64,000 nt of DNA from Thermoplasmata archaeon (lineage in GTDB: Archaea; Thermoplasmatota; Thermoplasmata; Lutacidiplasmatales; UBA184): the NCBI GenBank assembly GCA_035504595.1, contig DATJRQ010000018.1:80143-144142 (forward strand). The letters run 5' to 3'. A model generated the notes under the pieces. It ran no database searches and was not told where the DNA came from. It saw nothing but the letters and a program-made list of their open reading frames with translations. This document shows, piece after piece, positions 27,370 to 50,429 of the stretch. Numbering within the stretch: the first letter of the stretch is position 1; each line of letters starts with the position of its first letter. Both the position numbers and the translations under genes were made by a program.

Positions 27370-27451
27370 CCCGCCGGGGCATCGCCCCCGACGGATTCGG
27401 CCCGTCGGCGGTCGGATATGTACCAATTCCTGCGCGCTTCCCGCCGTAGGA

Positions 27452-27459
27452 TTCAAATA
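27452..27459 (+). promoter_or_regulatory. TATA-like box TTCAAATA
   Basis: Located 25-32 nt upstream of in-frame GTG 27484 of the large surface-protein gene. Confidence 0.35.
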
Positions 27460-27483
27460 CAGGAAACCGGCCTCTTTTCGTCC

Positions 27484-30400
27484 GTGAGCCTTCGTTTGGG
27501 CAGCTCCCCACGTACCGGGGATGCCGCGCGTGCCCCCCGGAACTGGACAAAAGCGGCCCTCGCGTCCGCGGTCGTGCTGGTCATGGTGCTGAGCACCGCG
27601 TCGCTGTTCGCGGTGCCGACCGCCGCCCCGGGGATGGCGACCTCCCCCCTCGCTCCCGTTGCTCCCGGCGGACACGCCGCCGCGGCGGTCCAGCCGGCCG
27701 CGGGTCCGACGCACTCCGACCTGATCATCACCTCGGGCGAGACGTACACCATCGCCCCCGGAGCACCCACCATCTTCCCCGTCCCGTACTTCCAGGGCGG
27801 GAACATCACGGTTCAATCGGGCGGGACGCTCATCGTCCAGGACGTCAATCTCACGTTCGTCCAGTTCGTCGGCAGCAACGGTAGCCTCGCCCAGCGTCTC
27901 TCGCACATCTACCAGTTCACGAACTTCGGTACGGTCGAGATCCAGAACTCGACGATCACCACGGACACGTTCGTGCTCAGCCCGTTCGTCAAGCTCGACC
28001 TCGTCAACGAAGGAACGTTCACGGCGTGGAACACGTCGTTCGCCTTCCCCGGATGGATCGACAACACCGGCGCCGGCGCGTCGTTCACCCTGAACCGGTC
28101 GGTCGTCGAGGCGAATCCGTTCGTCCCCGAGATGCAGGAACCCCTCGCGATCCTGGGGGACACCGCCTACGCCGCCAGCATCTACACGACCGACGGCGCC
28201 CACTTCTACCTGTTCAACAGCTCGCTGAACAACACCTACGCCGACAACACGCTCCTCTACGGGAGTCCGGGTCCGGCGCCGCTGAGCGCCACGAGTGTCA
28301 CGCTCCCCGGCGACGCGAGCAACCTCCTCTCCACGCCGACCGATGTGGCGAACCTGACGCTGGACTACCTGTACAACGGGATCGGCACCGGGGCGGGCTA
28401 TGGCGTCGCCGGCGGCTACGTCATCGCGGACTACAACAACTCCCTCGCCGAATCGAACTACACCGCGAGCGTCGAGTACCAGGGGATCACCTACCCCATC
28501 GCCGGCGTGTTCAACTTCCAGGGCGGCGCCAGCGGTGCCTCGATCGAGTTCGCCCTCCCCACCGCGCTCATTGACGCGATCAACGCCGGGGGGATGTTCG
28601 AGTACCTCACGCAGACGTGCTCGTTCGGTGTCACCGCCGGCTGCGGCATCTATCTCAACTTCACGGCGCTCGCGGGCGCGGGTCCGGTCACGCTTAACCC
28701 GGCCGAGATCCTGCTCGAGGCGGCCGCACAGTACAACGCCTACGCGAACGACTCCACCGTCGTCGCGGTGAACTCCGCACTCGACCTGCAGTGGAACCCG
28801 CCCCCCGCGACCTCGTACTCGAAGTCGTACCCGTACCCCTGGAGCTCGAACCTGTTCTACCTCGTGAACGGTTCGACGGCGTACCTCGCGAACGTGTCGG
28901 TGCCGAACAGCTACACCGCGTACGACCAGTCCGCGTTCGTTCCGGACGCGACCAGCGTGGTCAACGTCTACCGGTGGGCCCAGTTCAATCTGTACAACCT
29001 GACCCTCGTCGACGGGTCGCTCGAACCGGAGGCCGTCGCCGGTGCGGCCGCCACGGCGTACTACGCCTACAACAGCGACCAGTACAGCAACTCCACCGCG
29101 AACGCCCTCAACAACCTCGCCGGGCTCGGGCTCCCCGCGCTCACGGGGTACGTCAACTTCTACGACGGCGAGCACGGAGTGTCGAAGTATGGCGTTTCCA
29201 ACTCGCTCGGCCAGGCGTACGTCCTGCTCGCCTCGAGCCAGCTCGATACCGACATCACCCTGCCGGACGGGTACTTCCTCGGGGCCTACAACGTCGCCTT
29301 CACCGTCCCGTATGTGGCGAACGCGACTTGGGCGCACGCGTCGGTTACGGCGTATCCGGAAGGCGTCGCGCTCGGTACGACCGGCTTCGGGAACTCCGAC
29401 CACCACTCGGTCCAGGTCCCGCTGCCGCCGCCCTCGGTGAAGCTCACGAACCTTCAGATCGTTGACGTCCCCTCGGGCGGCGAGCTGATCCTCACCAACT
29501 CCTACACCACCTCCGGCAATCTGACCATCAACGGGCCCGGCTACGCGTCGATCGTGATCCAGGCGACCCCGGTCGGCAGCGTGATCGGGGGCGGCTCCAC
29601 GGTCAATGTGGCGGAGGACGCCGACGTCGCGAACGGCTCGTTCGATATCGCATGGAACTCGCTCGTGGGGGTCCTCTCCCCGGGCACGACGTACCAGGTC
29701 ACGGCGTCGGCCACGTACAAGACGGCCGCCGACAACCAGGTCACGGTGGGCACTCCGCCCGGCACCTACAGCGTCCCGTCGAGCCCGTCCGCGGTCGGCT
29801 TCCTCTACCAGAAGCTCCTGGGCCTGCCACTCTGGGTATGGATCGCGATCGCCGCCGCGATCGTCATCGGCCTCGTTGCCGCGCTGCTCGTTACCCGGCG
29901 CCAGGCCGCGGGCAAGCTCGTCGAGTGCGGCGAATGCGGGGAGCTCATTCCCGAGGACGCCACCGTATGTCCGAAGTGCGGGGCGCAGTTCGAGACCGAG
30001 CTCGTGCGGTGCAGCCGTTGTTCGTCCACGATCCCCGCGAACTCCCAGTTCTGTCCGGAGTGCGGCGCGCAGCTGCTCGGCAAGCCGGGCGAAGGCGCGT
30101 CCGACCCGGAGCGCCAGGCCTACGCGGACTTCACGGAGAAGTACCGGGCCGAGGGGAAGAAGGAGCTCGGCGACAACTACACCGAGAGCGCCTTCTGGGA
30201 CTGGTGGAAGCGCCAGCCGACGTACGTTCCGTTCAGCCAGTGGAAGGCCCAGCAGAACAAGGGGGCCCCGCGGGCCGGCATGAGCGCTCCGCCGGCGGGT
30301 ACGGAGAGCGTGCCGCCGGCCACCTCGGCCACGACGGACGCGAACATGGCCGCGACGCCGCCTCCAACTTCCGCGCCCGGAGCCCCGCCGACGACGGGAA

Positions 30401-30525
30401 TGGCGGCTCCGCCGACCCCTCCCCCCTCCGCGGGCGCGACGGGACTCAAGCCGTGCCCGAACTGCGGCAAGGAGATCCCGCCGGAGTACCTGGTCTGTCC
30501 GTTCTGCGGCGCGGTGACCCAGTAG
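27484..30525 (+). CDS. large cell-surface (S-layer-like?) glycoprotein candidate: signal anchor, ~800-aa sequon-rich ectodomain, one TM helix, cytoplasmic tail with three zinc ribbons
   Basis: Track ORF 27418..30525 (longest start ATG 27418; GTG 27484 preferred). N-terminal hydrophobic AALASAVVLVMVLSTASLFAV and about 20 N-x-S/T sequons by hand count. TM helix LWVWIAIAAAIVIGLVAALLV is followed by CGECG..CPKCG, CSRCS..CPECG and a terminal CPNCG..CPFCG. Confidence 0.75.
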   Translation: MSLRLGSSPRTGDAARAPRNWTKAALASAVVLVMVLSTASLFAVPTAAPGMATSPLAPVAPGGHAAAAVQPAAGPTHSDLIITSGETYTIAPGAPTIFPVPYFQGGNITVQSGGTLIVQDVNLTFVQFVGSNGSLAQRLSHIYQFTNFGTVEIQNSTITTDTFVLSPFVKLDLVNEGTFTAWNTSFAFPGWIDNTGAGASFTLNRSVVEANPFVPEMQEPLAILGDTAYAASIYTTDGAHFYLFNSSLNNTYADNTLLYGSPGPAPLSATSVTLPGDASNLLSTPTDVANLTLDYLYNGIGTGAGYGVAGGYVIADYNNSLAESNYTASVEYQGITYPIAGVFNFQGGASGASIEFALPTALIDAINAGGMFEYLTQTCSFGVTAGCGIYLNFTALAGAGPVTLNPAEILLEAAAQYNAYANDSTVVAVNSALDLQWNPPPATSYSKSYPYPWSSNLFYLVNGSTAYLANVSVPNSYTAYDQSAFVPDATSVVNVYRWAQFNLYNLTLVDGSLEPEAVAGAAATAYYAYNSDQYSNSTANALNNLAGLGLPALTGYVNFYDGEHGVSKYGVSNSLGQAYVLLASSQLDTDITLPDGYFLGAYNVAFTVPYVANATWAHASVTAYPEGVALGTTGFGNSDHHSVQVPLPPPSVKLTNLQIVDVPSGGELILTNSYTTSGNLTINGPGYASIVIQATPVGSVIGGGSTVNVAEDADVANGSFDIAWNSLVGVLSPGTTYQVTASATYKTAADNQVTVGTPPGTYSVPSSPSAVGFLYQKLLGLPLWVWIAIAAAIVIGLVAALLVTRRQAAGKLVECGECGELIPEDATVCPKCGAQFETELVRCSRCSSTIPANSQFCPECGAQLLGKPGEGASDPERQAYADFTEKYRAEGKKELGDNYTESAFWDWWKRQPTYVPFSQWKAQQNKGAPRAGMSAPPAGTESVPPATSATTDANMAATPPPTSAPGAPPTTGMAAPPTPPPSAGATGLKPCPNCGKEIPPEYLVCPFCGAVTQ

Positions 30526-30606
30526 TCGCGAGCGCCCAAGCGCCGGTCCCGCCGTTCCGGTCCCCGAATCCTTAAGCGCCGCCGGGCCTCGGAGCCCCGG
30601 TTCCGC

Positions 30607-31839
30607 ATGGCCGGCGACGTCGAACGGGGCCGGCAGAAGGTCGAGTGGGCCCGGACCCACATGCCGGTGCTCGAAGGGATCCGGCGACGGTTCGAGACGG
30701 AGTTGCCGTTCCGGGGCCTTACGCTCTCGCTCGTGCTGCACGTGGAGGCCAAGACCGCCGCCCTCGCCCTCGCGCTCTCGGCCGGCGGGGGGGACGTCCA
30801 CCTGGCCGCCGGCAACCCGCTCTCGACCGACGACGACGCGGTCGCGGCGCTCCGCGAGGAGGGGCTGGACACCTGGGCCGAGAAGGGCGAGTCGGTGGCG
30901 GCGTACCACGCCGGCATCCGCGCGATGCTCGATGTCGACCCGGACGTGATCGTGGACGACGGGGCGGACCTCGTGGCCCTCGTCCACTCGACCCGGAGGG
31001 ACCGCGGGAAGGTCCGGGGGTCGACCGAGGAGACCACTACCGGCGTCACGCGCCTGCGGGCGCTCGAGAAGACCGGAACGCTCCTCTTCCCCGCGATCGA
31101 CGTCAACGACGCCGACATGAAGCATCTGTTCGACAACCGGTACGGGACCGGGCAGTCCACCCTCGAGGGGATCCTGACCGCGACGAACCTGCTCATCCCG
31201 AGCAAGGTGTGCGTCGTCGCCGGCTACGGCTGGTGCGGCAAGGGGGTCGCTGCGCGGCTCAGCGGGTTGGGGGGCGACGTGGTCGTCACCGAGGTCGACC
31301 CGGTGCGCGCCCTCGAAGCCCGCATGGACGGTTTCCGGGTGATGCCGATGCTGGACGCCGCCCGCATCGCCGACCTGATCGTCACCGTCACCGGGAACAC
31401 GCACATCGTCCGCGAGGAGCATTTCCGCGTTCTCAAGGACGGATGCCTCCTCGCGAACGCGGGGCACTTCGACGTCGAGGTCTCTCGGACCGACCTGGAA
31501 GGGCTCGCGGTGGCGCACCGGACCGTCCGGCCGCAGGTCGAGGAGTACCGGTTCGCCGACGGGCGCCGGACCTACCTGCTGGGCGAGGGGCGGCTCATCA
31601 ACCTCGCCGCCGGCCAGGGACACCCGGTCGAGATCATGGACCTCTCGTTCGCCCTGCAGGCGCTCAGCGCCGAGCACATCGCTCGGCACGGGCGGGAGAT
31701 GGCGCTCCGCGTCCACCCGGTGCCGGCGGCGCTCGACCGCTCGGTCGCGATGGCGGCGCTCCCGTCGATGGGGGTCCGGATCGACGAGCCGACCGAGGCG
31801 CAGAAGAGATACGCGGCCGAGTGGAAGGGGGGAACGTAG
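30607..31839 (+). CDS. ahcY: adenosylhomocysteinase
   Basis: Track ORF with N-terminus KVEWARTHMPVL, HVEAKTA, TTTGV and NAD fold VAGYGWCGKGVA. Confidence 0.95.
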   Translation: MAGDVERGRQKVEWARTHMPVLEGIRRRFETELPFRGLTLSLVLHVEAKTAALALALSAGGGDVHLAAGNPLSTDDDAVAALREEGLDTWAEKGESVAAYHAGIRAMLDVDPDVIVDDGADLVALVHSTRRDRGKVRGSTEETTTGVTRLRALEKTGTLLFPAIDVNDADMKHLFDNRYGTGQSTLEGILTATNLLIPSKVCVVAGYGWCGKGVAARLSGLGGDVVVTEVDPVRALEARMDGFRVMPMLDAARIADLIVTVTGNTHIVREEHFRVLKDGCLLANAGHFDVEVSRTDLEGLAVAHRTVRPQVEEYRFADGRRTYLLGEGRLINLAAGQGHPVEIMDLSFALQALSAEHIARHGREMALRVHPVPAALDRSVAMAALPSMGVRIDEPTEAQKRYAAEWKGGT

Positions 31840-42259: not shown

Positions 42260-43624
42260 CTAAGGGAGTGCGACCGCAACGTAGCTCGTGTACGGTCCGA
42301 CCCCGAGAACCAGGAAGTTCAGTCCGGTGCCGGCGGGGTTGACAGTCCCGACGTCGACTTCGATTATGTACGAAGTCGTCAGGGGGGACGAGGTCGTAAG
42401 CGCCCCGCCGAACGTGGAGAAACCGGACGTCGGCATCTGCATCGCGTAGGGCGAGGCGGTGACGTAACTAGCAGCGACCGTCGTGAGGGTCGTTGAGAGC
42501 GCGACCGCGAACGCGCCGTGGGTCGTGCCGTCATACACGGTGCGGGTTGACGTCAGGACTTCGAAGAGCACGTTGCCAAAGGTCAACGGCGGCGATCCGG
42601 TGATCGTGATCTTGTAGTAGTAGTCGTTCGCCGCCTGACACGCGGCGACCGGTGTCGCGGCCGCCGTACACTTGGCGGACGCCGCGACGGGGGTCCCCAT
42701 CGTGAAGACGCTGCCGATGAGCGTTGAATATGGAGTGATGTACACCGGCACCGCCGAAGTGCCGGACCAGCCGTACCCGGCGGTGGTTGTGGCCGTGATC
42801 GGGACGTAGTACGTTCCGGCGGCGGTGGTGGACCCGAGTGAGATCGAATACGACCACTGCCCCGTCGCGGCGGAGTAGGTCATCGCCACCGGGGTCGTCT
42901 GGGTTGAAAGGCCGGGTAGGCCGGAAAGGATCGCGGTCACCGAGGTGCCCGCGCCCGGTACGACCCCCTGGATCGAGGCCCAGATTGCGAATGGGCCCCC
43001 AATCACGGGGACAGCCGGCGTGGTGCCGGTCGACAGGAACGCGAAGGACTGAGAGGTGGTCGCTACCGGCAGCGCGACGGTAAAGAGGACCTGATAATCG
43101 TAGTAAATGTACACGCTGATCGTGTCGGGCTGCGATCCGGCGAACGCGTACGGGTGACACGGCGCCGTGCACGGCGAGCCCGTCGGGACGAAGCTCGTCA
43201 GGAGCCAGGTCTGCCCGAGGTTCCAAGTGTTACCGGTAACGTTGCCGTTCGGGAGGGTGTACGTCCCGGTGTACTGCGAACTTGTGGGGAAGTACTTCGA
43301 TCGGACGTAGATCGAGGTCTGCGACGAAACCGGTGGTCCCGCGAGGTGCGTGATGGAAACTGCCGTGATGAAGCCCCCCGTCCCGGTGGCATTTGGAGTC
43401 ACAGTGAGGCGTGCCTGGAATTGGTTGGAATTCTGCGCGGGAGGCGCCGGGAACGCCGAGACCCACGCAAAGATCGACGAAAAGAGGACGACCGTCATCG
43501 CCAGGAGCAGAATGGTTGCGATGACCTCCGAGACCGCCCGACGCGACCGGACGAGGCGGCCCCGATATCCCAGACGCCCACCCTTCCCGTTCAGGAAACG
43601 ATGGTTCGAACCTTCCTGAAGCAT
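42260..43624 (-). CDS. archaeal type IV pilin-like protein (class III signal peptide), 454 aa, paralogue of 40946..42238
   Basis: Track ORF with ...RSRRAVSEVIATILLLAMTVVLFSSI. The C-terminal ~170 aa are clearly alignable by eye to the neighbour. Confidence 0.75.
   Translation of the reverse strand: MLQEGSNHRFLNGKGGRLGYRGRLVRSRRAVSEVIATILLLAMTVVLFSSIFAWVSAFPAPPAQNSNQFQARLTVTPNATGTGGFITAVSITHLAGPPVSSQTSIYVRSKYFPTSSQYTGTYTLPNGNVTGNTWNLGQTWLLTSFVPTGSPCTAPCHPYAFAGSQPDTISVYIYYDYQVLFTVALPVATTSQSFAFLSTGTTPAVPVIGGPFAIWASIQGVVPGAGTSVTAILSGLPGLSTQTTPVAMTYSAATGQWSYSISLGSTTAAGTYYVPITATTTAGYGWSGTSAVPVYITPYSTLIGSVFTMGTPVAASAKCTAAATPVAACQAANDYYYKITITGSPPLTFGNVLFEVLTSTRTVYDGTTHGAFAVALSTTLTTVAASYVTASPYAMQMPTSGFSTFGGALTTSSPLTTSYIIEVDVGTVNPAGTGLNFLVLGVGPYTSYVAVALP
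42614..42651. repeat. second copy of the 38-nt paralogue segment
   Basis: See 41303..41340. Confidence 0.8.
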
Positions 43625-43771: not shown

Positions 43772-44404
43772 CTACGGGAGCGACACCGGGGACGTCGTAC
43801 CGGAGTACGAGCCGACCCCAATCGCCACGAACGTGTAGCCCTGGCCGGACGGCGAGGGGGCAGTCCCCAGGTCAATGACGATCGTGTAGATGCTCGTCAG
43901 CGGGCTTGAGGACGAGCACGTGTTGCCGTTGCACGCCCCAGCGACCGCGCTAAAGACCGAGAACGGGCTCGTCATCGCCAACGACGCGGACGTCGCGGCG
44001 CTCGCTGCGACCGCCACACCAGCGGTGTTCACGATCGCGAAGCCACCGGTACCCGTCGTGATCGCGGCAATCGATCCGGTCGCCGTCTTGACCTCGAACT
44101 GGGCGCTCGTGAAGGTGATCGACGAGCTCTCCACGGTCAACGTGTAGATGATGTCGCCCGCCTTGCACCCGTTCGCAGCGTAGGTGTTCCCCGCGCCGCA
44201 CGTGGACGAAACCGGGTTTCCTGCGTTGAAGGCGGTCCCGATCCCCACCGAGCCAGGTCCGTGGGTCAGGCCCGTGATCAGCACGTACAACACGGCGGCC
44301 AATACGACCGTGATCGCGACGAGCAAAATCGTCGCAATGATCGGCGATACCCCGCGCTTCCGCGCCTTTCTCCAGCTTCGCTCGCTCTTTCCAAAGACGT
44401 TCAT
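43772..44404 (-). CDS. archaeal type IV pilin (class III signal peptide), 210 aa
   Basis: Track ORF with MNVFGKSERSWRKARKRGVSPIIATILLVAITVVLAAV, a near-canonical archaeal pilin/DUF1628-type N-terminus. GGAGG lies just upstream of the ATG. Confidence 0.8.
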   Translation of the reverse strand: MNVFGKSERSWRKARKRGVSPIIATILLVAITVVLAAVLYVLITGLTHGPGSVGIGTAFNAGNPVSSTCGAGNTYAANGCKAGDIIYTLTVESSSITFTSAQFEVKTATGSIAAITTGTGGFAIVNTAGVAVAASAATSASLAMTSPFSVFSAVAGACNGNTCSSSSPLTSIYTIVIDLGTAPSPSGQGYTFVAIGVGSYSGTTSPVSLP

Positions 44405-45766: not shown

Positions 45767-45859
45767 ACACGGCGTGTTCGCGCCCCTATGCGAGCGCATA
45801 CCGCGCTCGCCGCCGCTTCAAATCCCGGGTCGCGCGAGGGAGGGTCGAGAACCCCGCCC

Positions 45860-46573
45860 ATGGCGACCCACCTTCGCATCAGTCTCACGATCCTCAGCAT
45901 GGGATTCGCGGTGGAAGGCATTGCCGAGCTGTACTCGCTCACCACGGCGGGCGCGCTCTTGCCCGGAACGAGTTGGCTGTTCCTCTTGCCGGCGCTCATC
46001 ACGGTCCTGGGCCTCCTGTTCATCCTGGTCGGAAAGCACGAGTGGGACGAGGTCCATCGGAATCGCGTGCACCGAGCCAATACGGTATTCGTGGCCAGTC
46101 TCGTGGCGGGGGTGGTCGCGATCCTCGAACTCGGGGCGCTCGCCCTCTACCCCGCCTTCGGAACCCCCTGGTGGGCGGAGCTCCTGTTCGGCGGGGCCGC
46201 CGCCGGCTTTGTCCTCGGAACCTTCGTCACGTACAGTCTGTTGGTCTTCCATCTAGTCCACACGCCGAGCAAGGGAGCGCTCGTCGCGGCGATGGCCTGG
46301 GCGCTCCTCGTCTCCGCATTCATCGGGGTCACCCTGGCCGCGGACCTTCCGTCGATCCTCGGGCTCATCCGGGCGAGGTCGTTGTCATTCGAGTCCCTGT
46401 TCGGGCCGATCGATTACCTCGTGTCGTTCCTGTTCCTCTCGTACTTCCTGCTGCTCGCGGCCTACGTGGATGCGCACGTCACGGTCGCGCGGGGGCTCCC
46501 GAGGAAGACCCGGCCGCGCGGGCCCCCGGGCGAAGGGCCGGCCCGGGCCCAGACCTCGAACATCGCGCGCTGA
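45860..46573 (+). CDS. integral membrane protein, unknown function
   Basis: Track ORF 45788..46573, start ATG 45860 (MATHLRISLT...). About 7 hydrophobic helices. Confidence 0.7.
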   Translation: MATHLRISLTILSMGFAVEGIAELYSLTTAGALLPGTSWLFLLPALITVLGLLFILVGKHEWDEVHRNRVHRANTVFVASLVAGVVAILELGALALYPAFGTPWWAELLFGGAAAGFVLGTFVTYSLLVFHLVHTPSKGALVAAMAWALLVSAFIGVTLAADLPSILGLIRARSLSFESLFGPIDYLVSFLFLSYFLLLAAYVDAHVTVARGLPRKTRPRGPPGEGPARAQTSNIAR

Positions 46574-46629
46574 ACTCGGGATCGCGATTTCCGGAGGAGG
46601 TTATACTGACCCGACCCGGGCGAATGCAC

Positions 46630-46659
46630 TTGTTCGACAGCTCTAAAAAACTGTTCGAC
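46630..46659 (+). repeat. two exact TGTTCGACA boxes, 21 nt apart (46630-46638, 46651-46659)
   Basis: Read directly from the sequence. They lie in the most A/T-rich intergenic stretch of the window. Confidence 0.85.
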
Positions 46660-46688
46660 ACGTCAGAAAAGTCCCAAACGCGACCTAA

Positions 46689-46696
46689 CTTTTTTT
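46689..46696 (+). terminator. oligo-T run (T8), archaeal-type terminator candidate
   Basis: The only T8 run I saw in the window. It lies 116 nt after the stop of the 45860..46573 gene and upstream of the RHH gene promoter. Confidence 0.4.
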
Positions 46697-46719
46697 TCGC
46701 GTCAGTCCAACGTGCGTTT

Positions 46720-46728
46720 GTTTAAGTA
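46720..46728 (+). promoter_or_regulatory. TATA-like box TTTAAGTAT
   Basis: Located 23-31 nt upstream of GTG 46751 of the RHH gene. Confidence 0.5.
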
Positions 46729-46750
46729 TCAGGAATCTACATGCCTCAGC

Positions 46751-47257
46751 GTGGCCGTGTTCGACAAGTCCGCATCGCGTCCCGGGGCGCCCGTTCGGGC
46801 GCCGGACGAGCGCGGAACCGACACGGAAGACGCGCGCATCGCCCTACGGTGCAACCTGAAGGAGCTTCGGCTGGTCGACTCGTTCGTCGGCAACGGCGAG
46901 TTCGAGTCCCGCTCGGAGCTCATGCGGGCGGCGCTGCACGCGTTTCTCCGGTCGCACGCCCTGTCGACCGCGCCCACGCCCCCCGTAGATGCCGAGGGCC
47001 TCGTCGAGGTCCCCGTGCGCCTGCGGCCCGACGAGTACGCCGACTTCGAGGCCTACGCCCGGCACGTCGCGAACGGACAATCGGTGAGGGACCTCCTCGC
47101 CCAGATCGTCCGGCACGGCGAGGCCGAGATGAAGGTCCACGAGCTCGCAGCCCGAGCTCGCGCAACGGTGCGCGAAGCGGTCGAAAACCGGGCCAGCGCG
47201 GGAGCTCTCCAGGAGAGCGGCAAGGACCTGGAGCGGAAGGGGGTCGTCGGGCGCTAG
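46751..47257 (+). CDS. tandem ribbon-helix-helix (CopG/Arc/MetJ-like) DNA-binding protein
   Basis: Track ORF 46712..47257, preferred leaderless start GTG 46751. RHH-1 is IALRCNLKELRLVDSFVGNGEFESRSELMRAALHAFL. RHH-2 is VPVRLRPDEYADFEAYARHVANGQSVRDLLAQIVRHG, followed by a helical C-terminal tail. Confidence 0.7.
   Translation: MAVFDKSASRPGAPVRAPDERGTDTEDARIALRCNLKELRLVDSFVGNGEFESRSELMRAALHAFLRSHALSTAPTPPVDAEGLVEVPVRLRPDEYADFEAYARHVANGQSVRDLLAQIVRHGEAEMKVHELAARARATVREAVENRASAGALQESGKDLERKGVVGR
46757..46765 (+). repeat. third exact TGTTCGACA box, overlapping codons 3-5 of the RHH gene
   Basis: Read directly. It lies 106 nt (about 5 x 21) downstream of the second box. Confidence 0.8.
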
Positions 47258-47298
47258 ACGGGCGGAGGACGAGATCGAAGGCGGCACGAGGGGGGGTT

Positions 47299-48222
47299 GT
47301 GGGAGTCTACGAGGCCGAGCGGGTACAGAGCGACCGAAACTCCGCGCCGGGATACGGCGAGCCGATCGAGGACGGCGGGTACGACAACCTGCGCCTCGGG
47401 CAGGACGTTCGATTCGTCCTGGTCGCAGTCGGCGGGGGAGCGATCCGGGTCGGAAGGGAGATCGCGCGTCGCCACATCCGCCATCTCGAGACCGTTGCGA
47501 TCAATTGCGACCCCAAGGTCCAGGGATTCGATGACTACGACCGCCGCGTCTACCTGGGGCCCGACTCGGGCGCCGAGGTCGACACCGGCGGCTCCGCGGT
47601 CGTCGGAGGGGTTCTCGCGCGCGCGGCCGAGCCGGCGCTCGAGCGGATCTTCCATGGGGCCACGTTCGTCATCCTCGTCGGGAGCCTGGGCGGCGGCGCC
47701 GGCAGCGGGGCGTTCCCGTACCTGCTCGACGTAGCCTGCCGTCACTCCGAGGTCCTGAGCGCCTTCGTGATCAAGCCGTTCCGGTGCGAGGGGGAGCGCC
47801 GTGCGCTCGCCGACCGGACGATCGCGCGCCTGCAGTTCGTCGACTCGTTCGTCGAGCGCCAGGAGAGCGGACATGCGTCGCTCTCGACGCTCGACAACGA
47901 GTCCCTCGCCCGCGCCCAGGGCCATCTCGCGTTCCATGAGGTGAGCCGCCACTGGGCGGGCGTCATCGAGCGGCACATCGAGACGTCCTTCGTCGCCCCG
48001 GTCGAGGCGCTGGTCGAAGCCGTGCAGATGACCCGCGTCGCCACCGAGCTTCCCATGAACCGGCTGCCCGAGGCCGAGGCCCCGGCGCTGGGCGGCTATC
48101 CCCCCGCACCTCCGTCGGGACCCGATTTTCCGCCGCTGCTCCCGGCCGCGACGGGTCGGCCCGCCGAGGTCGAGCTGACGTTCGAGGTCGAGCCCCAGGC
48201 TCGACCCGTCAGTCCGTCGTAG
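47299..48222 (+). CDS. FtsZ/tubulin-superfamily GTPase lacking the FtsZ C-terminal domain (307 aa)
   Basis: Last 307 codons of track ORF 46741..48222, from GTG 47299 preceded by GAGGGGGG. FVLVAVGGGAIRVG matches the FtsZ T1 region and TVAINCDPKV matches FFAVNTDAQA. FVILVGSLGGGAGSGAFPYLLDVA matches the GGGTG(S/T)G signature, and SAFVIKPFRCEGERR matches VVTKPFNFEGKKR. A Pro-rich tail ends in VELTFEVE. Confidence 0.8.
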   Translation: MGVYEAERVQSDRNSAPGYGEPIEDGGYDNLRLGQDVRFVLVAVGGGAIRVGREIARRHIRHLETVAINCDPKVQGFDDYDRRVYLGPDSGAEVDTGGSAVVGGVLARAAEPALERIFHGATFVILVGSLGGGAGSGAFPYLLDVACRHSEVLSAFVIKPFRCEGERRALADRTIARLQFVDSFVERQESGHASLSTLDNESLARAQGHLAFHEVSRHWAGVIERHIETSFVAPVEALVEAVQMTRVATELPMNRLPEAEAPALGGYPPAPPSGPDFPPLLPAATGRPAEVELTFEVEPQARPVSPS

Positions 48223-48291
48223 CGGCGCGGGGTGCGGGTCGCGCGGCCCGCCCTCAGGGCTTATGAACGGAACCGCTTCCCGTCTTCCGCC

Positions 48292-48468
48292 ATGAACGGT
48301 CGGTGGGTCACGGTCCTGCTGCTGTGGGTCGTGCCCGCCGTGGCGATCGGCGCCACGGTCGCCTGGTTCAACTCGAACCCGCTCGCGATCATGATCGCGC
48401 TGTCCGCGATGATCCTCGGGGCGCTGTATCTGTTGACCTACAGCGAGCGGTTCGGCGCCGCCGGATAG
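48292..48468 (+). CDS. 58-aa two-helix membrane mini-protein
   Basis: Internal ATG of track ORF 48232..48468: MNGRWVTVLLLWVVPAVAIGATVAWFNSNPLAIMIALSAMILGALYLLTYSERFGAAG. Confidence 0.55.
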   Translation: MNGRWVTVLLLWVVPAVAIGATVAWFNSNPLAIMIALSAMILGALYLLTYSERFGAAG

Positions 48469-48475
48469 TCGCGTT

Positions 48476-49273
48476 CTACCGGTACATCTCCGGCGACGGC
48501 GGCACCTCGGAGGGGGCCCCGGCGTTCGCGCTGGCGGTCGATTGGGATTTCATGACCGCGCGGAGCGCCTTCTCGATCTGCTCGGCCTGAGCGCGGAGCG
48601 GTCGAGTGTCGATCTGCAGTTCGGGTAGCACGCGGTCGAGCGTCTCGATCAACGCCGCGCCGGCACGGTGGTCGGGCAACCCCTCGGCGACGCGCGCGCT
48701 GACGAGCAGCACCGCGATCGGAACCCGGCGGCTCATGCCGCGGACGAGCATCGCGCCCGACACGCCCCCGATGACGCCCTCCTCGAGCGCCCGGGTGCGG
48801 GCCGCGGCGAACGCCTTCGCGAAATCGGGGTCCTTCCGGGCGAACGCGACCCATACCTGCTCGTCGGAGGGTGCCTCGTCCCCCGGCGTCTCGGGCTCGT
48901 CGTCCTCCGGGTGGGGCACGACCCCCTCGAGGCAGATGATCATCCGTGCCTCTCGCCGCTCGGCGGCGTCCAGGATCGTCGACGCGATCCCGTTCGCCTG
49001 GCTGGGCGACGGGGGGAATTCGGAGAGGACCAACGCGAGGTCGGGGCGACCGTAGACCCGGATCGTAGGGTTCACGACCCCACCGGACACGACCGCGATC
49101 GGCGGGAGGTCGGGGGACTCGAACCGGGCGATCCGCGGCAGTTGGAGGACTCGCAGAATGTAGTGAGCGGCGACGATCGTGGCGAGCCCGGCGCTCGGGA
49201 ACGCCGATAGCACGACCGACCCCCTGGCGAACGCCGCATCGGCCGCCGACTCGTCGCGCCACGTGAATTCCAT
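48476..49273 (-). CDS. PAC2-family proteasome assembly chaperone (PbaA/PbaB-like)
   Basis: Track ORF of ~265 aa with PAC2/DUF75-like N-terminus (VLSAFPSAGLATIVAAHYIL). The C-terminal HbYX-type tripeptide (M-Y-R) is characteristic of proteasome alpha-ring binders. Confidence 0.8.
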   Translation of the reverse strand: MEFTWRDESAADAAFARGSVVLSAFPSAGLATIVAAHYILRVLQLPRIARFESPDLPPIAVVSGGVVNPTIRVYGRPDLALVLSEFPPSPSQANGIASTILDAAERREARMIICLEGVVPHPEDDEPETPGDEAPSDEQVWVAFARKDPDFAKAFAAARTRALEEGVIGGVSGAMLVRGMSRRVPIAVLLVSARVAEGLPDHRAGAALIETLDRVLPELQIDTRPLRAQAEQIEKALRAVMKSQSTASANAGAPSEVPPSPEMYR

Positions 49274-49394
49274 GCGTACCGGGGGGTCCGAAGCCGTCCC
49301 GGCTCTTTAACGCGCCCGCACCGGTCGGGGGTCAGACCCCCCGCGCCGCGTGAGGACGGTAATTCCAAGTACTCCGCGCCACTGCGACGCCGAC

Positions 49395-50429
49395 GTGGGG
49401 CTTCCCCTCAAGGACCTCGTCGCCGCGCAGGAGCTTTCGTGGGACGCCCTGGCGGGGCGGACTCTCGCAGTCGACGGATTCAACGCCGCCTATCAGTTCC
49501 TCGCGACGATCCGCCAGCGAGACGGCCAGCTGTTCACGGACCCCGCCGGGAAGGTCACCAGTCACCTGATGGGCACCTTCTACCGTACGACGTCCCTGCT
49601 GCAGCAGGGGGTGCTCCCGGTATGGGTCTTCGACGGGAAACCTCCCGAGCGAAAGGCCGGCACGATCCGACAGCGGATCGCCGCGAAGGAGAAGGCGGAA
49701 GGAGAGTACCGGGAGGCCCTCGCCGCTGGGGACCTTGAGACCGCCCGGCGGAAGGCCGCGCAGACCTCCCGTCTGACCCGCCCGATGGTCGACGAACTCG
49801 TCGAGCTGCTGGGCGCGATGGGGGTGCCGACGGTGCAAGCCCCGGGCGAAGGGGAGGCGCAGTCGGCCGTGATGGCCGCGCAGGGCACCGTCTGGGCGAG
49901 CGCCTCGGAGGATTACGACACCCTCCTGTTCGGCGCGCCCCGCCTCGTCCGGGGGCTCGCGGCTCGGGGCCGCGGAGGGGCGACCCCCGGCGCCCAGTTC
50001 GTCGACCGGGCGGAGCTCCTCGCGACCCTCGGGATCGACGGGGAGGAACTGATCACGCTCGGGATCATCATCGGCACCGACTTCAACGACGGCGTGCGGG
50101 GGTATGGCCCCAAGAAGGCGCTGAAGGCGGTCCGGGAGCACCTGGGGTTCCGCGCTACGGTCGAGAAGCTGGGCCTCGACCTCGCGGAGGCTGACGCGGT
50201 CGCCGAGATCTTCCGCCACCCGACCTCTATGACCGTACCGGCGCCCGCGTTCGGACCGGTCAACGAGGAAGCGGTCCGACGGATCCTCGTGGATGGCCAC
50301 GGCTTCTCGGAGGAACGCGTCCGGGCCGCGATCGCTCGGGCCCGCCAGCGGCCGCGCGTCGCCGCGTCACCCGCCGAGGCGAAGAGTCATCAGACCCTGC
50401 TCGACACGTTCGGCGGGGGTGGGGAATGA
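49395..50429 (+). CDS. fen: flap endonuclease 1
   Basis: Track ORF 49350..50429, start GTG 49395 (VGLPLKDLV...). AVDGFNAAYQFL, VWVFDGKPPERK, GEGEAQ and SEDYDTLLFGAP are present. Confidence 0.95.
   Translation: MGLPLKDLVAAQELSWDALAGRTLAVDGFNAAYQFLATIRQRDGQLFTDPAGKVTSHLMGTFYRTTSLLQQGVLPVWVFDGKPPERKAGTIRQRIAAKEKAEGEYREALAAGDLETARRKAAQTSRLTRPMVDELVELLGAMGVPTVQAPGEGEAQSAVMAAQGTVWASASEDYDTLLFGAPRLVRGLAARGRGGATPGAQFVDRAELLATLGIDGEELITLGIIIGTDFNDGVRGYGPKKALKAVREHLGFRATVEKLGLDLAEADAVAEIFRHPTSMTVPAPAFGPVNEEAVRRILVDGHGFSEERVRAAIARARQRPRVAASPAEAKSHQTLLDTFGGGGE

What the first reader, a model, noticed from the sequence alone, without database searches (positions are those of the whole stretch)
46574..48468. 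Candidate novel cytomotive/positioning cassette: iterated DNA boxes + tandem-RHH binder + truncated FtsZ/tubulin-like GTPase + 2-TM mini-protein
Three co-directional, tightly spaced genes form the cassette: 46751-47257 (RHH), 47299-48222 (FtsZ-like GTPase) and 48292-48468 (58 aa, two hydrophobic helices). They sit behind the most A/T-rich spacer of the window. That spacer carries three exact TGTTCGACA boxes at 46630, 46651 and 46757. A 9-mer of this composition is expected about 0.1 times per strand in 64 kb by my rough estimate, so three within 140 nt is not chance. The logic resembles plasmid segregation modules. In those, a ParR (RHH) or TubR adaptor binds iterated centromere repeats and couples them to a filament-forming NTPase (ParM or TubZ). 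Here an RHH-type binder is paired with a tubulin-fold GTPase and a possible membrane tether, in what otherwise looks like ordinary chromosome. I do not recall a characterised archaeal system with this composition; that statement rests on memory only.
Basis: partly seen in the sequence, partly recalled or inferred. Interest (0 to 1): 0.8.

Follow-up and report, generated by a model that had tools for sequence, protein, structure and literature searches.

The report
Half-FtsZ module with RHH regulator
A group of uncultured Thermoplasmata archaea carries a conserved, undescribed gene module: a DNA-binding regulator, a "half" FtsZ that has only the GTP-binding half of the cell-division protein, and a tiny membrane protein; its repeated DNA boxes sit where promoter control sites sit, so it resembles the known archaeal cdrS-ftsZ2 division operon more than a DNA-segregation machine.

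Summary
Downstream are an RHH gene, a 307-aa FtsZ-like gene with no FtsZ_C domain, and a 58-aa two-TM gene.

- **Synteny:** the trio is syntenic in all 35 related Thermoplasmata MAG loci. It is also kept in a 38%-identical relative with different flanking genes. A 30%-identical sister group keeps it with the mini gene inverted.
- **DNA elements:** five upstream elements are 98-100% conserved with fixed spacing, while the spacers are only about 40-47% identical. Two are TATA-like (GTTATAC, GTTTAAGTA) and three are GTTCGAC boxes. Two boxes lie just downstream of a TATA-like element, and box 3 overlaps the true GTG start at 46757.
- **Proteins:** the GTPase model is the FtsZ N-domain plus helix H7. 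It is followed by a Pro-rich disordered linker and a conserved EVELTFEVE tail, with no T7 loop or C-subdomain. The closest curated families for the RHH are the archaeal cell-cycle regulators CdrS and aCcr1.
- **Mobile elements:** no relatives were found in viral or plasmid collections.

Best reading: an autoregulated RHH plus truncated-FtsZ operon, with a separately promoted membrane partner. It is a new variant of the cdrS-ftsZ2 theme, and a ParR/TubR-type segregation system is unlikely. The function is inferred, not shown.

The parts
46600..46606 (+). Distal TATA-like element GTTATAC (putative promoter P1)
   Evidence: Invariant in 33/33 loci that have a full upstream region, and 31-33 nt upstream of the box 1 core. 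It fits the (C/T)TTA(T/A)(A/G/T) elements found 28-37 nt before other gene starts in this window. Promoter function is inferred.
46631..46639 (+). Box 1, TGTTCGACA (core GTTCGAC 46632-46638)
   Evidence: Exact match. The core is 100% conserved in 33 loci, while the flanking spacers are 39-45% identical. It lies about where a transcript from P1 would start.
46652..46666 (+). Box 2, extended element TGTTCGACACGTCAG
   Evidence: 97.6% column identity over 15 nt. It lies 20-21 nt (two helical turns) after box 1 and 105-107 nt before the box 3 core.
46720..46728 (+). Proximal TATA-like box GTTTAAGTA (promoter P2 of the RHH/FtsZ-like operon)
   Evidence: 99% conserved. TTAAGTA starts exactly 35 nt before the GTG start in 34/34 loci. 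This predicts a leaderless or very short-leader mRNA (inference).
46757..46767 (+). Box 3, GTGTTCGACAA, overlapping the start codon of the RHH gene
   Evidence: Invariant in 34 loci. The synonymous third positions (TTC, GAC) never vary, although TTC is used for 95% of Phe codons and GAC for 86% of Asp codons elsewhere in these genes. The naive probability of that is about 1e-3, ignoring relatedness.
46757..47257 (+). RHH-type DNA-binding protein, 166 aa. It has an N-terminal disordered tail, RHH unit 1 (about residues 25-70), a second strand-helix-helix unit (about 82-120), a long C-terminal helix, and a conserved SGKDLERKGVVGR end.
   Evidence: RHH_1 at 0.006 and CdrS NF058555 at 2.4e-4; CdrS is the best NCBIfam family in 49/49 members, best E 4e-7, below the curated cut-off. 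Foldseek gives local matches to ParD/PrpA, NikR and Arc RHH domains (rmsd about 1 A over 45 residues, prob up to 0.99, E-values poor). Mean column identity is 80%. The second unit is not recognised by sequence.
47290..47296 (+). G-run (Shine-Dalgarno-like) ahead of the FtsZ-like start
   Evidence: GGGGGGGTTGTG is conserved across loci in the 41-nt spacer between the RHH stop codon and the FtsZ-like GTG. Co-transcription with the RHH gene is inferred.
47299..48222 (+). Truncated FtsZ paralogue ('half-FtsZ'), 307 aa
   Evidence: PF00091 at 8e-11 over residues 41-178 with no FtsZ_C; TIGR00065 scores 62.7 bits against a cut-off of 295. The family length is 285-320 aa in all 120 listed of the 429 matching clusters. 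Only about 25 clusters at 50% identity exist among 1.8 billion representatives, followed by a sharp drop to generic FtsZ hits that cover only residues 36-185.
47413..48048 (+). FtsZ N-terminal GTPase domain plus core helix H7 (residues 39-250)
   Evidence: AF2 block-mean pLDDT is 75-97 over residues 41-230 and falls to 66-69 at the end of H7. Elements are S1-S6 and H1-H7. All top Foldseek PDB hits are FtsZ: about 197-200 aligned columns, rmsd 2.6-3.0 A, E about 1e-11. Conserved motifs are GGG (T1), SLGGGxGSG (T4), KPFxCEGxRR and LDNE.
48049..48165 (+). Pro-rich disordered linker (residues 251-289). It takes the place of the C-terminal subdomain and T7 loop.
   Evidence: pLDDT is below 50 for residues 254-294. 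The region is variable and Pro-rich in alignments. It is too short (about 57 residues to the end of the protein) to hold an FtsZ C-subdomain.
48166..48192 (+). Conserved acidic C-terminal peptide EVELTFEVE (residues 290-298)
   Evidence: E292, F295 and E296 are invariant; E290, L293 and T294 are at least 90% conserved in 80 sequences. E296 is kept in all 17 sequences of the wider alignment. It lacks the archaeal FtsZ CTD 'GID' motif (PMC8178401). A partner-binding role is inferred.
48260..48266 (+). TATA-like element CTTATGA ahead of the mini gene
   Evidence: The TTA is invariant and positionally fixed about 31 nt before the ATG in 34 loci. GC-rich hairpin-like sequences often lie between the FtsZ-like stop codon and this element.
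48292..48468 (+). Two-TM mini membrane protein (58 aa here, 55 aa in most relatives)
   Evidence: tblastn hits in every locus whose sequence extends far enough to include it (33 of 35), at 46-76% identity. Conserved features are an MDGR start, an F-x-SNP turn between two hydrophobic helices, and a YLL(T/S)Y-x-E-x-F end. A 56-aa homologue (54% identity) is kept in distant locus L036. A 63-66 aa two-TM gene sits convergently in the sister group. No Pfam, NCBIfam, PHROG or PADLOC family matches.

Best explanation
This is a conserved chromosomal module of a clade of uncultured, high-GC Thermoplasmata.

Gene organisation. It consists of a bicistronic operon that encodes an RHH transcription factor and a C-terminally truncated FtsZ paralogue. 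A separately promoted gene for a 55-58 aa two-TM protein follows.

The boxes. The GTTCGAC boxes (9-bp near-palindrome TGTTCGACA, compare TGTC-N-GACA in a distant relative) are most likely operators of the RHH protein. Box 3 overlaps the start codon, just downstream of the proximal TATA box. Box 1 lies just downstream of a second, distal TATA-like element. Box 2 lies two helical turns after box 1 and about ten turns before box 3. Occupancy would therefore autoregulate the operon by blocking the pre-initiation complex, possibly with looping through the long C-terminal helix. This is how aCcr1 represses cdvA, and how CdrL/CdrS control cdrS-ftsZ2.

The half-FtsZ. It keeps the nucleotide-binding domain and helix H7 but has no T7 loop or C-subdomain. 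It cannot act as the catalytic 'upper' subunit of a protofilament. It is most plausibly a GTP-binding modulator of an FtsZ-type division or membrane-remodelling machinery, for example a cap, a nucleator or an anchor. Its flexible linker and conserved acidic C-terminal peptide would serve as a docking tail, with the co-conserved mini membrane protein as the leading candidate tether.

Shown here: gene content, fold, domain loss, synteny, invariance and spacing of the DNA elements, and absence from mobile-element collections.

Inferred: who binds the boxes, autoregulation, GTP binding, the partner of the tail, and any role in division.
For: Synteny:
- The RHH, FtsZ-like and mini genes are adjacent in all 35 species-level loci.
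- The trio persists in L036 (GTPase 38% identical, RHH 35%, mini 54%) with unrelated flanking genes.
- It persists in the 30%-identical sister group, with the mini-type gene inverted.

Cis elements:
- Five elements are 98-100% conserved, against 39-47% in the spacers.
- Spacings are fixed: 31-33, 20-21, 68-70 and exactly 35 nt.
- The TATA-like elements match other promoter-like elements in the window.
- There is no conserved RNA structure (alifold -1.6 kcal/mol) and no Rfam hit.

RHH protein:
- CdrS is the best curated family for 49/49 members. Sister-group RHHs hit aCcr1 (2e-6) and CdrS (5e-6).
- The recognition strand ARIALRC is invariant wherever the box is invariant. In L036 both the strand (VKLAFRT) and the boxes (TGTCGGACA, TGTCCGACG) differ.

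Published precedents:
- cdrS-ftsZ2 co-transcription, and CdrL binding upstream of it (PMC7439475).
- CdrS motifs at -110 to -41 from transcription starts (PMC8406309).
- The 9-bp palindromic aCcr1-box between TATA and start codon, which represses cdvA (PMC9976878).

GTPase:
- The AF2 core is confident and ends after H7.
- Only FtsZ structures match, over about 200 residues.
- The T1, T4 and T5-type motifs are conserved.

Mobile elements: no homologues in IMG/VR or PLSDB, and no PADLOC hit; the only PHROG hit is a weak RHH match to a 'transcriptional repressor' family (E 0.002).
Against: - No binding, expression or localisation data exist. All members are from uncultured MAGs.
- The CdrS/aCcr1 matches are far below the curated cut-offs (21-27 bits against 60-100). 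They show a related RHH, not orthology.
- I could not determine whether these genomes also encode canonical FtsZ1, FtsZ2 or SepF, so 'modulator of FtsZ' has no demonstrated target.
- Box 3 lies in coding sequence, so part of its conservation is due to the MFD(N/K) N-terminus.
- The distal GTTATAC element may be something other than a promoter.
- Box motifs are not evident upstream of the sister-group loci.
- Some distant family members have degenerate T1 and T4 motifs (GGEAGTE, GGETGSS), so nucleotide binding may not be universal.
- The mini gene has its own promoter, so its link to the other two genes rests on conserved adjacency only.
Confidence: 0.6

Rival explanations
1. Segregation or positioning machine. 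The boxes are a centromere, the RHH protein is a ParR/TubR-like adaptor, and the FtsZ-like GTPase forms cytomotive filaments. These filaments would move or anchor this chromosomal site, with the mini protein as a membrane tether.
For: - Iterated boxes lie next to the adaptor gene. parC and tubC also double as operators.
- The RHH fold is that of ParR and ParG. One sister-group RHH has a faint ParR hit (0.026).
- The GTPase has a flexible linker and a conserved C-terminal peptide. TubZ uses a C-terminal tail to bind TubR (my own knowledge).
- All three genes are co-conserved.
Against: - The GTPase lacks the C-terminal subdomain and T7 loop that are needed for head-to-tail, hydrolysing FtsZ/TubZ/tubulin filaments.
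- There are only three boxes. Two of them lie just downstream of TATA-like elements, where an operator would act.
- The module lies in conserved housekeeping chromosomal context. No relative is found in 2.9 million viral contigs or 72,556 plasmids.
- The closest curated RHH families are the transcription factors CdrS and aCcr1.
Confidence: 0.1
2. The gene pair is the lineage's own orthologue of cdrS-ftsZ2. Here FtsZ2 has lost its C-terminal half and CdrS has grown extra domains. Under this reading the half-FtsZ is the clade's FtsZ2 replacement working with FtsZ1, rather than an additional paralogue.
For: - The gene order matches the widely conserved cdrS-ftsZ2 locus: an RHH gene immediately upstream of, and co-directional with, an FtsZ-family gene (PMC7439475).
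- CdrS is the top curated family for every RHH member.
- Only FtsZ structures match the GTPase; no CetZ, TubZ or tubulin structures do.
Against: - The N-domain is only about 25-35% identical to any canonical FtsZ. Its best canonical matches are bacterial-type FtsZs rather than archaeal FtsZ2.
- The archaeal FtsZ CTD 'GID' motif is absent (PMC8178401).
- I could not check whether canonical ftsZ2 and cdrS exist elsewhere in these genomes.
- No phylogeny was made.
Confidence: 0.2
3. The half-FtsZ and the mini protein form a membrane-remodelling or signalling GTPase switch unrelated to cytokinesis, analogous in spirit to the FtsZl1 systems. The RHH protein is simply its local repressor.
For: - Divergent FtsZ-like proteins that lack the T6-H7 elements or the C-domain, and are linked to membrane proteins, have been proposed to remodel membranes (PMC2875224).
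- The partner here is a membrane protein.
- Some members have degenerate GTP motifs, which suggests a non-polymer role.
Against: - The protein is not an FtsZl1 member. Tubulin_2 scores E 0.13 against PF00091 at 8e-11.
- No vWA, kinase or OmpA neighbours are present.
- The RHH affinities to CdrS and aCcr1 point to cell-cycle control.
Confidence: 0.08
4. The AT-rich spacer with repeated boxes is a replication origin (ORB-like repeats around an unwinding element), or it encodes a structured leader or small RNA.
For: This is the AT-richest 100-200 nt of the window. It has direct repeats, and a distal promoter-like element that could drive a non-coding transcript.
Against: - All boxes are in one orientation.
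- There is no GC-skew inflection at this position.
- The boxes travel with the gene module rather than with the locus (L036).
- The sequence between the boxes is not conserved and shows no covarying structure. There is no Rfam hit.
Confidence: 0.02

Closest known systems
cdrS-ftsZ2 operon with CdrL/CdrS control (Halobacterium salinarum, Haloferax volcanii; conserved in Euryarchaeota)
   Same: - An RHH transcription-factor gene lies immediately upstream of, and is co-transcribed with, an FtsZ-family gene.
- An RHH protein (CdrL) binds upstream of that operon (PMC7439475).
- CdrS recognises a symmetric motif near promoters (PMC8406309).
- CdrS is the best curated match of the RHH here.
   Different: - CdrS is a single RHH domain of about 60 aa. 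Here the protein is 166 aa, with a second strand-helix-helix unit and a long helix.
- FtsZ2 is a complete FtsZ (PF00091 plus a C-terminal domain). Here the C-subdomain, T7 loop and GID tail are missing.
- A co-conserved 2-TM mini protein is added.
- Match scores are far below the family cut-off, so orthology is unproven.
aCcr1 / aCcr1-box control of cdvA in Sulfolobales
   Same: [quoted passage not shown]
- Here 9-bp near-palindromic boxes lie downstream of TATA-like elements. Sister-group RHHs hit the aCcr1 model at 2e-6.
   Different: - A different archaeal phylum, target gene (cdvA, ESCRT system) and box sequence.
- aCcr1 is not encoded next to its target.
- No binding data exist here.
Truncated FtsZ paralogues of Hyphomicrobiales (Agrobacterium tumefaciens FtsZ1 and FtsZ3)
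   Same: These are conserved extra FtsZ copies that lack part of the canonical protein. They are proposed to tune division, and FtsZ1 overexpression blocks division (bioRxiv 10.1101/2025.09.29.679267).
   Different: They are bacterial and are described there as duplications of the FtsZ GTPase. From my own recollection, not checked here, A. tumefaciens FtsZ1 keeps the full globular domain and lacks the linker and tail, the reverse of the truncation here. The preprint abstract does not report a dedicated RHH regulator or mini membrane partner.
FtsZl1 (Pfam Tubulin_2) systems of Makarova and Koonin 2010
   Same: Highly divergent FtsZ-superfamily proteins without a recognisable T6-H7 region or C-domain. 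They are encoded with membrane-associated partners and were predicted not to be the main division protein (PMC2875224).
   Different: The protein here matches PF00091 and not Tubulin_2. It keeps H7. It has no vWA, kinase, GTPase or OmpA neighbours. It is restricted to a narrow archaeal clade.
TubZRC and ParMRC plasmid partition systems
   Same: An adaptor binds iterated DNA repeats next to its own gene and is paired with a cytoskeletal NTPase. ParR is an RHH protein. The NTPase has a C-terminal tail that could dock an adaptor.
   Different: TubZ and ParM are complete filament formers; this GTPase is half a protein. Centromeres carry more repeats (7-10, from my own knowledge). Those systems are plasmid- or phage-borne, whereas this one is chromosomal, clade-wide and absent from PLSDB and IMG/VR.

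Membership tests
FtsZ (canonical; TIGR00065, or PF00091 plus PF12327) | N-terminal GTPase domain with T1 (GGGGxN) and T4 (GGGTG[ST]G) nucleotide-binding loops | tested here: met
   PF00091 at 8e-11. Conserved GGG and SLGGGxGSG, KPFxCEGxRR and LDNE motifs. All PDB and Foldseek hits are FtsZ. In most main-clade members the T4 Thr is replaced by Ala.
FtsZ (canonical; TIGR00065, or PF00091 plus PF12327) | C-terminal subdomain (FtsZ_C) with the T7 synergy loop that completes the GTPase site of the next subunit | tested here: not met
   No PF12327 hit. TIGR00065 scores 62.7 bits against a cut-off of 295. The model ends after H7 (residue 250), followed by about 57 mostly disordered, Pro-rich residues.
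FtsZ (canonical; TIGR00065, or PF00091 plus PF12327) | Archaeal C-terminal SepF-binding peptide (LDDFIDGI, nearly invariant GID; PMC8178401) | tested here: not met
   The conserved tail is EVELTFEVE. No GID motif occurs in any of the 80 aligned sequences.
CdrS (NCBIfam NF058555) and the cdrS-ftsZ2 locus | Small (about 60 aa) single-domain RHH protein scoring above the family cut-off | tested here: not met
   21 bits against a cut-off of 100. The protein is 166 aa. Even so, CdrS is the top curated family in 49/49 members.
CdrS (NCBIfam NF058555) and the cdrS-ftsZ2 locus | RHH gene immediately upstream of, and co-directional with, an FtsZ-family gene | tested here: met
   A 41-nt spacer with a conserved G-run. 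The arrangement is found in every locus whose sequence reaches the RHH gene, and in L036, L038 and L039. Co-transcription was not tested.
CdrS (NCBIfam NF058555) and the cdrS-ftsZ2 locus | The partner is a full-length FtsZ2 required for constriction | tested here: not met
   The partner lacks the C-subdomain. Function is not testable with these tools.
RHH (Arc/MetJ/CopG) DNA-binding superfamily | Beta-strand, helix, helix unit with a G-x-[ST] turn, pairing into a two-stranded ribbon | tested here: inconclusive
   Unit 1: RHH_1 at 0.006 and CdrS at 2.4e-4, with local Foldseek matches to ParD, NikR and Arc (rmsd about 1 A over 45 residues, poor E-values). Unit 2: the pattern VEVPVRL-helix-NGQS-helix only, with no profile hit and no similarity to unit 1. 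Model pTM is 0.35. The ribbon pairing was not verifiable.
ParMRC or TubZRC-type partition system | Self-polymerising NTPase with complete filament interfaces | tested here: not met
   The bottom-face (T7 and C-subdomain) half of the longitudinal interface is absent. Polymerisation itself is not testable here.
ParMRC or TubZRC-type partition system | Centromere of multiple iterated adaptor sites | tested here: inconclusive
   Three conserved boxes only, two of them just downstream of TATA-like elements. Operators and centromeres can coincide.
ParMRC or TubZRC-type partition system | Residence on plasmids or phages, or another unit that needs active partition | tested here: not met
   No relative in IMG/VR or PLSDB. 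The flanks are housekeeping genes: PAC2, FEN1, ADH, FTCD.
FtsZl1 (Pfam PF13809 Tubulin_2) | Match to Tubulin_2, with vWA, kinase, GTPase or OmpA operon partners | tested here: not met
   Tubulin_2 scores E 0.13 over 18 residues only. None of those neighbours is present.

The most novel reading that the evidence does not exclude
The half-FtsZ is a new kind of tubulin-superfamily element: a single-domain, GTP-loaded 'end piece'. It would dock through its acidic C-terminal peptide to the 2-TM mini protein, to the RHH protein, or to both. In that way it would cap or nucleate canonical FtsZ filaments at the membrane. That would directly link chromosome position and cytokinesis in wall-less archaea.
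Probability: 0.12. Interest if true: 0.85.

Novelty: new variant of a known kind. Interest (0 to 1): 0.55.

Why it matters
If the reading is right, a whole clade of soil, peat and sediment Thermoplasmata keeps a stripped-down FtsZ under strong purifying selection. Mean column identity is 71% for the half-FtsZ and 80% for its regulator.

This FtsZ has only the nucleotide-binding half plus a docking tail. It comes with a dedicated CdrS/aCcr1-like regulator and a tiny membrane partner. That combination would be a natural experiment on three questions:
- what the FtsZ N-domain can do on its own (capping, nucleation or switching);
- how far the RHH-based control of archaeal division genes extends beyond haloarchaea and Sulfolobales;
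- how FtsZ-type proteins are tethered to membranes when SepF-type motifs are absent.

The invariant 9-bp boxes with fixed spacing give an immediately testable operator. The family is annotated only as 'hypothetical protein', and I found no paper that describes it.

Tried and rejected
1. **Sequencing frameshift of an ordinary FtsZ: rejected.** The length is 285-320 aa in all 120 listed of the 429 matching clusters. Only 69 nt separate the gene from the mini gene. No FtsZ_C hit exists in any frame or member.
2. **FtsZl1 membership: rejected** (PMC2875224, PMC9871819).
3. **Fourth box at 31127 as part of a regulon: rejected.** It lies inside the AhcY coding sequence, at LFDN codons. One-mismatch copies across the window are explained by the common TTC-GAC (Phe-Asp) codon pair.
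4. **Small ORF starting at box 1: rejected.** Box 1 and box 2 are in frame in the window, but there is no conserved start codon and the spacing is 20 nt in 5 loci.
5. **Structured leader or small RNA between the two TATA-like elements: rejected.** The alifold energy is -1.6 kcal/mol, from invariant bases only, and there is no Rfam hit.
6. **Replication origin: no support**.
7. **Internal duplication of the RHH unit: not detectable.** hhalign gave probability 0.4%, and Pfam found nothing on the second half. A PDB profile search of the RHH family gave nothing significant.
8. **Defence-system or phage origin: no support.** PADLOC gave nothing. The only PHROG hit is a weak 'transcriptional repressor' match (0.002) on the RHH.
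9. **Canonical FtsZ elsewhere in the window or the fetched loci: none found**.
10. **Box motif in the sister group:** no convincing copies upstream of L038 or L039.
11. **Supplementary tables of the CdrS paper, to check for Thermoplasmata entries:** not held.

Full report
**1. What is in the sequence**

The region 46574-48468 lies in a 69% GC archaeal window. Close relatives are all labelled Thermoplasmata archaeon MAGs. The spacer ahead of the cassette is the most AT-rich stretch of the whole window: GC is 41% over 46642-46741.

It occurs once more at 31127. About 0.27 copies are expected per window, and none of 100 shuffles gave four. The 31127 copy lies inside the S-adenosylhomocysteine hydrolase gene, where it encodes LFDN. 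I set it aside as coincidence.

Three co-directional ORFs follow the spacer:
- an RHH-type protein;
- a 307-aa FtsZ-like protein (47299-48222);
- a 58-aa protein with two hydrophobic helices (48292-48468).

**2. The proteins**

*The GTPase.* It matches PF00091 only over residues 41-178 (8e-11). It has no FtsZ_C hit. It scores 62.7 bits on the FtsZ equivalog model, whose cut-off is 295.

A profile of 80 family members hits only FtsZ chains in the PDB, and only over residues about 41-185.

The AlphaFold2 model is confident over most of residues 39-250, with block-mean pLDDT of 75-97 over residues 41-230 and 66-69 at the end of helix H7. It contains strands S1-S6, helices H1-H6 and a long helix H7. 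After that comes a segment with pLDDT below 50 (residues 254-294) and then the end of the protein.

Foldseek returns only FtsZ structures. About 197-200 columns align at 2.6-3.0 A, with E about 1e-11.

The protein is therefore the N-terminal nucleotide-binding domain of FtsZ plus H7. About 57 residues follow, which is too few for the C-terminal subdomain, and there is no T7 loop.

These motifs are conserved:
- the T1-type GGG;
- the T4-type SLGGGxGSG;
- KPFxCEGxRR;
- LDNE.

The Pro-rich linker ends in a conserved acidic peptide, EVELTFEVE. It does not carry the nearly invariant GID motif of archaeal FtsZ C-terminal peptides that bind SepF (PMC8178401).

The short length is not a sequencing artefact. 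All 120 listed of the 429 matching clusters are 285-320 aa, fragments aside. A full scan of 1.8 billion cluster representatives finds only about 25 family clusters. The scores then drop sharply to generic FtsZ hits that cover the N-domain alone.

The protein is not an FtsZl1 (Tubulin_2) member (PMC2875224, PMC9871819).

The GTG at 46757, inside box 3, is invariant and gives 166 aa, the modal length of homologues.

Residues about 25-70 form an RHH unit by weak profile matches: RHH_1 at 0.006 and the CdrS model NF058555 at 2.4e-4. Local structural matches to ParD/PrpA, NikR and Arc agree, at about 1 A over 45 residues, though their E-values are poor.

All 49 aligned family members have CdrS as their best NCBIfam family (best E 4e-7). 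The equivalent proteins of a sister group hit aCcr1 (2e-6), CdrS (5e-6) and NikR. All these scores are far below the curated cut-offs. They show a related RHH, not orthology.

The second half has the strand-helix-G-x-S-helix pattern of an RHH. No profile recognises it, and it shows no detectable similarity to the first half. 'Tandem RHH' therefore remains unproven.

A long C-terminal helix and an invariant SGKDLERKGVVGR end complete the protein.

*The mini protein.* It is 55 aa in most relatives. It has an MDGR start, two hydrophobic helices joined by a conserved F-x-SNP turn, and a conserved YLL(T/S)Y-x-E-x-F end. It matches no family in any library.

**3. Comparative evidence**

A scan of one genome per species returned 35 loci, all from Thermoplasmata MAGs.

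The RHH, FtsZ-like and mini genes are adjacent in every locus that is long enough. GTPase identity falls as low as 54% across these loci. Those loci also share PAC2 and FEN1 neighbours, so this result alone could reflect close relatedness.

Two further observations remove that objection:
- A family member only 38% identical (L036) sits between unrelated genes: NDK, Sua5 and peptidase M24 upstream, and a class I aminoacyl-tRNA synthetase gene (Pfam tRNA-synt_1e) downstream. It still has a 152-aa RHH homologue (35% identity, E 4e-19) directly upstream and a 56-aa mini homologue (54% identity) directly downstream.
- A sister group about 30% identical, with GC 46-49% and nine clusters, has a 157-162 aa RHH gene directly upstream. 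A 63-66 aa two-TM gene lies directly downstream, on the opposite strand.

The association of the three genes therefore survives changes of neighbourhood, and even a change of orientation. No relative was found in IMG/VR viral contigs or in PLSDB plasmids.

**4. The DNA elements**

I aligned 300 nt around the RHH start from 33 loci. Five islands of conservation stand in otherwise unalignable sequence:

| Element | Window coordinates | Column identity |
|---|---|---|
| GTTATAC (distal TATA-like) | 46600-46606 | 100% |
| GTTCGAC (box 1 core) | 46632-46638 | 100% |
| TGTTCGACACGTCAG (box 2) | 46652-46666 | 97.6% |
| GTTTAAGTA (proximal TATA-like) | 46720-46728 | 99% |
| GTGTTCGACAA (box 3) | 46757-46767 | 100% |
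| Spacers between the elements | - | 39-47% |

The spacings are fixed:
- GTTATAC to box 1: 31-33 nt;
- box 1 to box 2: 20-21 nt;
- box 2 to TTAAGTA: 68-70 nt;
- TTAAGTA to the GTG start: exactly 35 nt in 34 of 34 loci.

Elements of the form (C/T)TTA(T/A)(A/G/T) lie 28-37 nt before the starts of other genes in this window, for example CTTAAGC before the AhcY gene and GCTTATACG before the gene at 18996. GTTTAAGTA and GTTATAC therefore look like this organism's TATA boxes, and the mRNAs look leaderless or nearly so.

On that reading, box 3 overlaps the transcription start and start codon of the operon. Box 1 sits at the start of a distal promoter. Box 2 lies two helical turns after box 1 and about ten turns before box 3.

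Box 3 is coding (MFD). Its synonymous positions never vary, although TTC accounts for 95% of Phe codons and GAC for 86% of Asp codons elsewhere in these genes. The naive probability is about 1e-3, ignoring relatedness.

Other readings of the spacer do not hold:
- A small ORF from box 1 is excluded. There is no conserved start codon, and the spacing breaks the frame in 5 loci.
- A structured RNA is not supported. The alifold energy is -1.6 kcal/mol with no covariation, and there is no Rfam hit.
- A replication origin is not supported. There is no GC-skew inflection, and the boxes travel with the module rather than with the locus.

In L036 the boxes are TGTCGGACA and TGTCCGACG, a 9-bp palindrome TGTC-N-GACA. 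They lie between a TTTTAAATAT box and the start codon. The RHH recognition strand also differs there (VKLAFRT against the invariant ARIALRC). That pairing is what one expects if the RHH protein reads the boxes, but it is a single comparison. In the sister group I saw no convincing boxes.

Further downstream, the 41-nt spacer between the RHH and FtsZ-like genes carries a conserved G-run just ahead of the GTG. The mini gene has its own invariant TTA within a CTTA(A/T)GA element about 31 nt before its ATG. The unit is therefore best described as a bicistronic operon plus a separately promoted neighbour.

**5. How it most likely works**

What is shown is the anatomy described above. The following steps are inferred.

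- The RHH protein binds the GTTCGAC boxes and autoregulates the operon. The positions match published archaeal RHH cell-cycle regulators:
  - CdrL binds upstream of cdrS-ftsZ2 (PMC7439475).
  - CdrS motifs lie 41-110 nt upstream of transcription starts (PMC8406309).
- The half-FtsZ retains a nucleotide pocket but cannot donate a T7 loop. It cannot be a normal, hydrolysis-competent filament subunit. It could sit on one end of an FtsZ filament, or act as a GTP switch.
- Its linker-plus-peptide tail copies the logic of the FtsZ C-terminal tail. The co-conserved mini membrane protein is the obvious candidate partner.

Bacterial truncated FtsZ paralogues that perturb division when overexpressed are a loose precedent (bioRxiv 10.1101/2025.09.29.679267).

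I give this reading 0.6. The weakest points are:
- I could not establish whether these genomes have canonical FtsZ1, FtsZ2 or SepF. None is in the window or in the fetched loci.
- Some distant family members have degenerate GTP motifs.

**6. Rivals**

- *Segregation or positioning reading (0.1).* It fits the iterated boxes, the RHH adaptor and the tailed NTPase. It is weakened by the missing half of the filament interface, the small number of boxes and their positions beside the TATA-like elements, the chromosomal clade-wide distribution, and the absence from mobile elements.
- *Derived orthologue of cdrS-ftsZ2 (0.2).* Under this variant the pair is not an extra paralogue. This concerns origin more than mechanism, and it needs whole-genome inventories and a tree.
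- *Non-division membrane GTPase switch (0.08).*
- *Origin or RNA readings (0.02).* These have little support.

**7. Novelty and verdict**

The pairing of an RHH regulator gene with an FtsZ-family gene is already known, so the cassette is not categorically new.

What I found no description of is this particular combination:
- a conserved FtsZ reduced to its N-domain plus H7, with a docking tail;
- an enlarged CdrS/aCcr1-like regulator;
- a co-conserved 55-aa two-TM protein;
- a precisely spaced set of invariant operator-like boxes.

The proteins are annotated as hypothetical. Four literature searches found no paper on them.

I rate it a new variant of a known kind, with interest 0.55. It offers a clear, testable hypothesis about FtsZ regulation in an unstudied archaeal clade. 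There is no functional evidence, and no cultured host.

Noticed in passing
window 27418-30525 (+): A 1035-aa predicted surface or membrane protein. Its tail carries a double zinc ribbon (PF12773, 7e-13) and further zinc-ribbon repeats (PF13240, three stretches). Double-zinc-ribbon or zinc-finger domains also occur in the haloarchaeal division-related proteins CdrL (PMC7439475) and CdpC (bioRxiv 10.64898/2026.07.16.738847). No link to the cassette was tested.
   Followed up: partly
window 42260-43624 (-) and 43772-44404 (-): Two archaeal type IV pilin-like genes (Pilin_N, 3e-10 and 6e-6). They lie in the lowest-GC 4-kb stretch of the window (65% against 69%). Their intergenic regions are the next most AT-rich spots after the cassette spacer.
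   Followed up: partly
window 6589, 18996, 25106, 30607, 52632, 56487 (+) and 837 (-), upstream regions: TATA-like elements of the form (C/T)TTA(T/A)(A/G/T) lie 28-40 nt before candidate start codons. This suggests mostly leaderless or short-leader mRNAs in this organism. The pattern is useful for correcting start codons across the window.
   Followed up: partly
window 45788-46573 (+): A 261-aa multi-pass membrane protein directly upstream of the cassette, with no family match. It is conserved only in the six closest loci (L001-L004, L022, L027), so it is not part of the module.
   Followed up: partly
window 46741-48222 (+) and many other places: Very long spurious ORFs on both strands and in alternative frames, as expected at 69% GC. 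One example is a 493-aa ORF that runs through the RHH gene, out of frame with it, into the FtsZ-like gene's frame; another is a 1568-aa antisense ORF at 27010-31716. ORF length alone is not evidence of a gene here.
   Followed up: no
L027 and L035 (related loci): In these two long-read-style assemblies the RHH and FtsZ-like genes align only in pieces, with shifted coordinates. In L027 the boxes fall at -63 and -42 instead of -120 and -99, and the FtsZ-like match is split. This is most likely indel errors or local rearrangement in those assemblies.
   Followed up: no
proteins P0131 and P0133 (distant family members): The T4 nucleotide-binding motif is degenerate (SLGGEAGTE and SLGGETGSS), and in P0133 the T1 motif is as well (VGGAAV). 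The C-terminal [DE]-V-E-[LI]-x-[FL]-E peptide and the overall length are kept. This suggests that a sub-lineage may have lost GTP binding.
   Followed up: no
window 48476-49273 (-) and 49350-50429 (+): A divergent pair of genes: a PAC2-family proteasome-assembly chaperone (1.5e-30) and flap endonuclease FEN1 (XPG_N and XPG_I). They sit immediately downstream of the cassette in nearly all close relatives. In Haloferax, CdrS binds upstream of proteasome genes (PMC8406309). Whether the adjacency here means anything was not tested.
   Followed up: no
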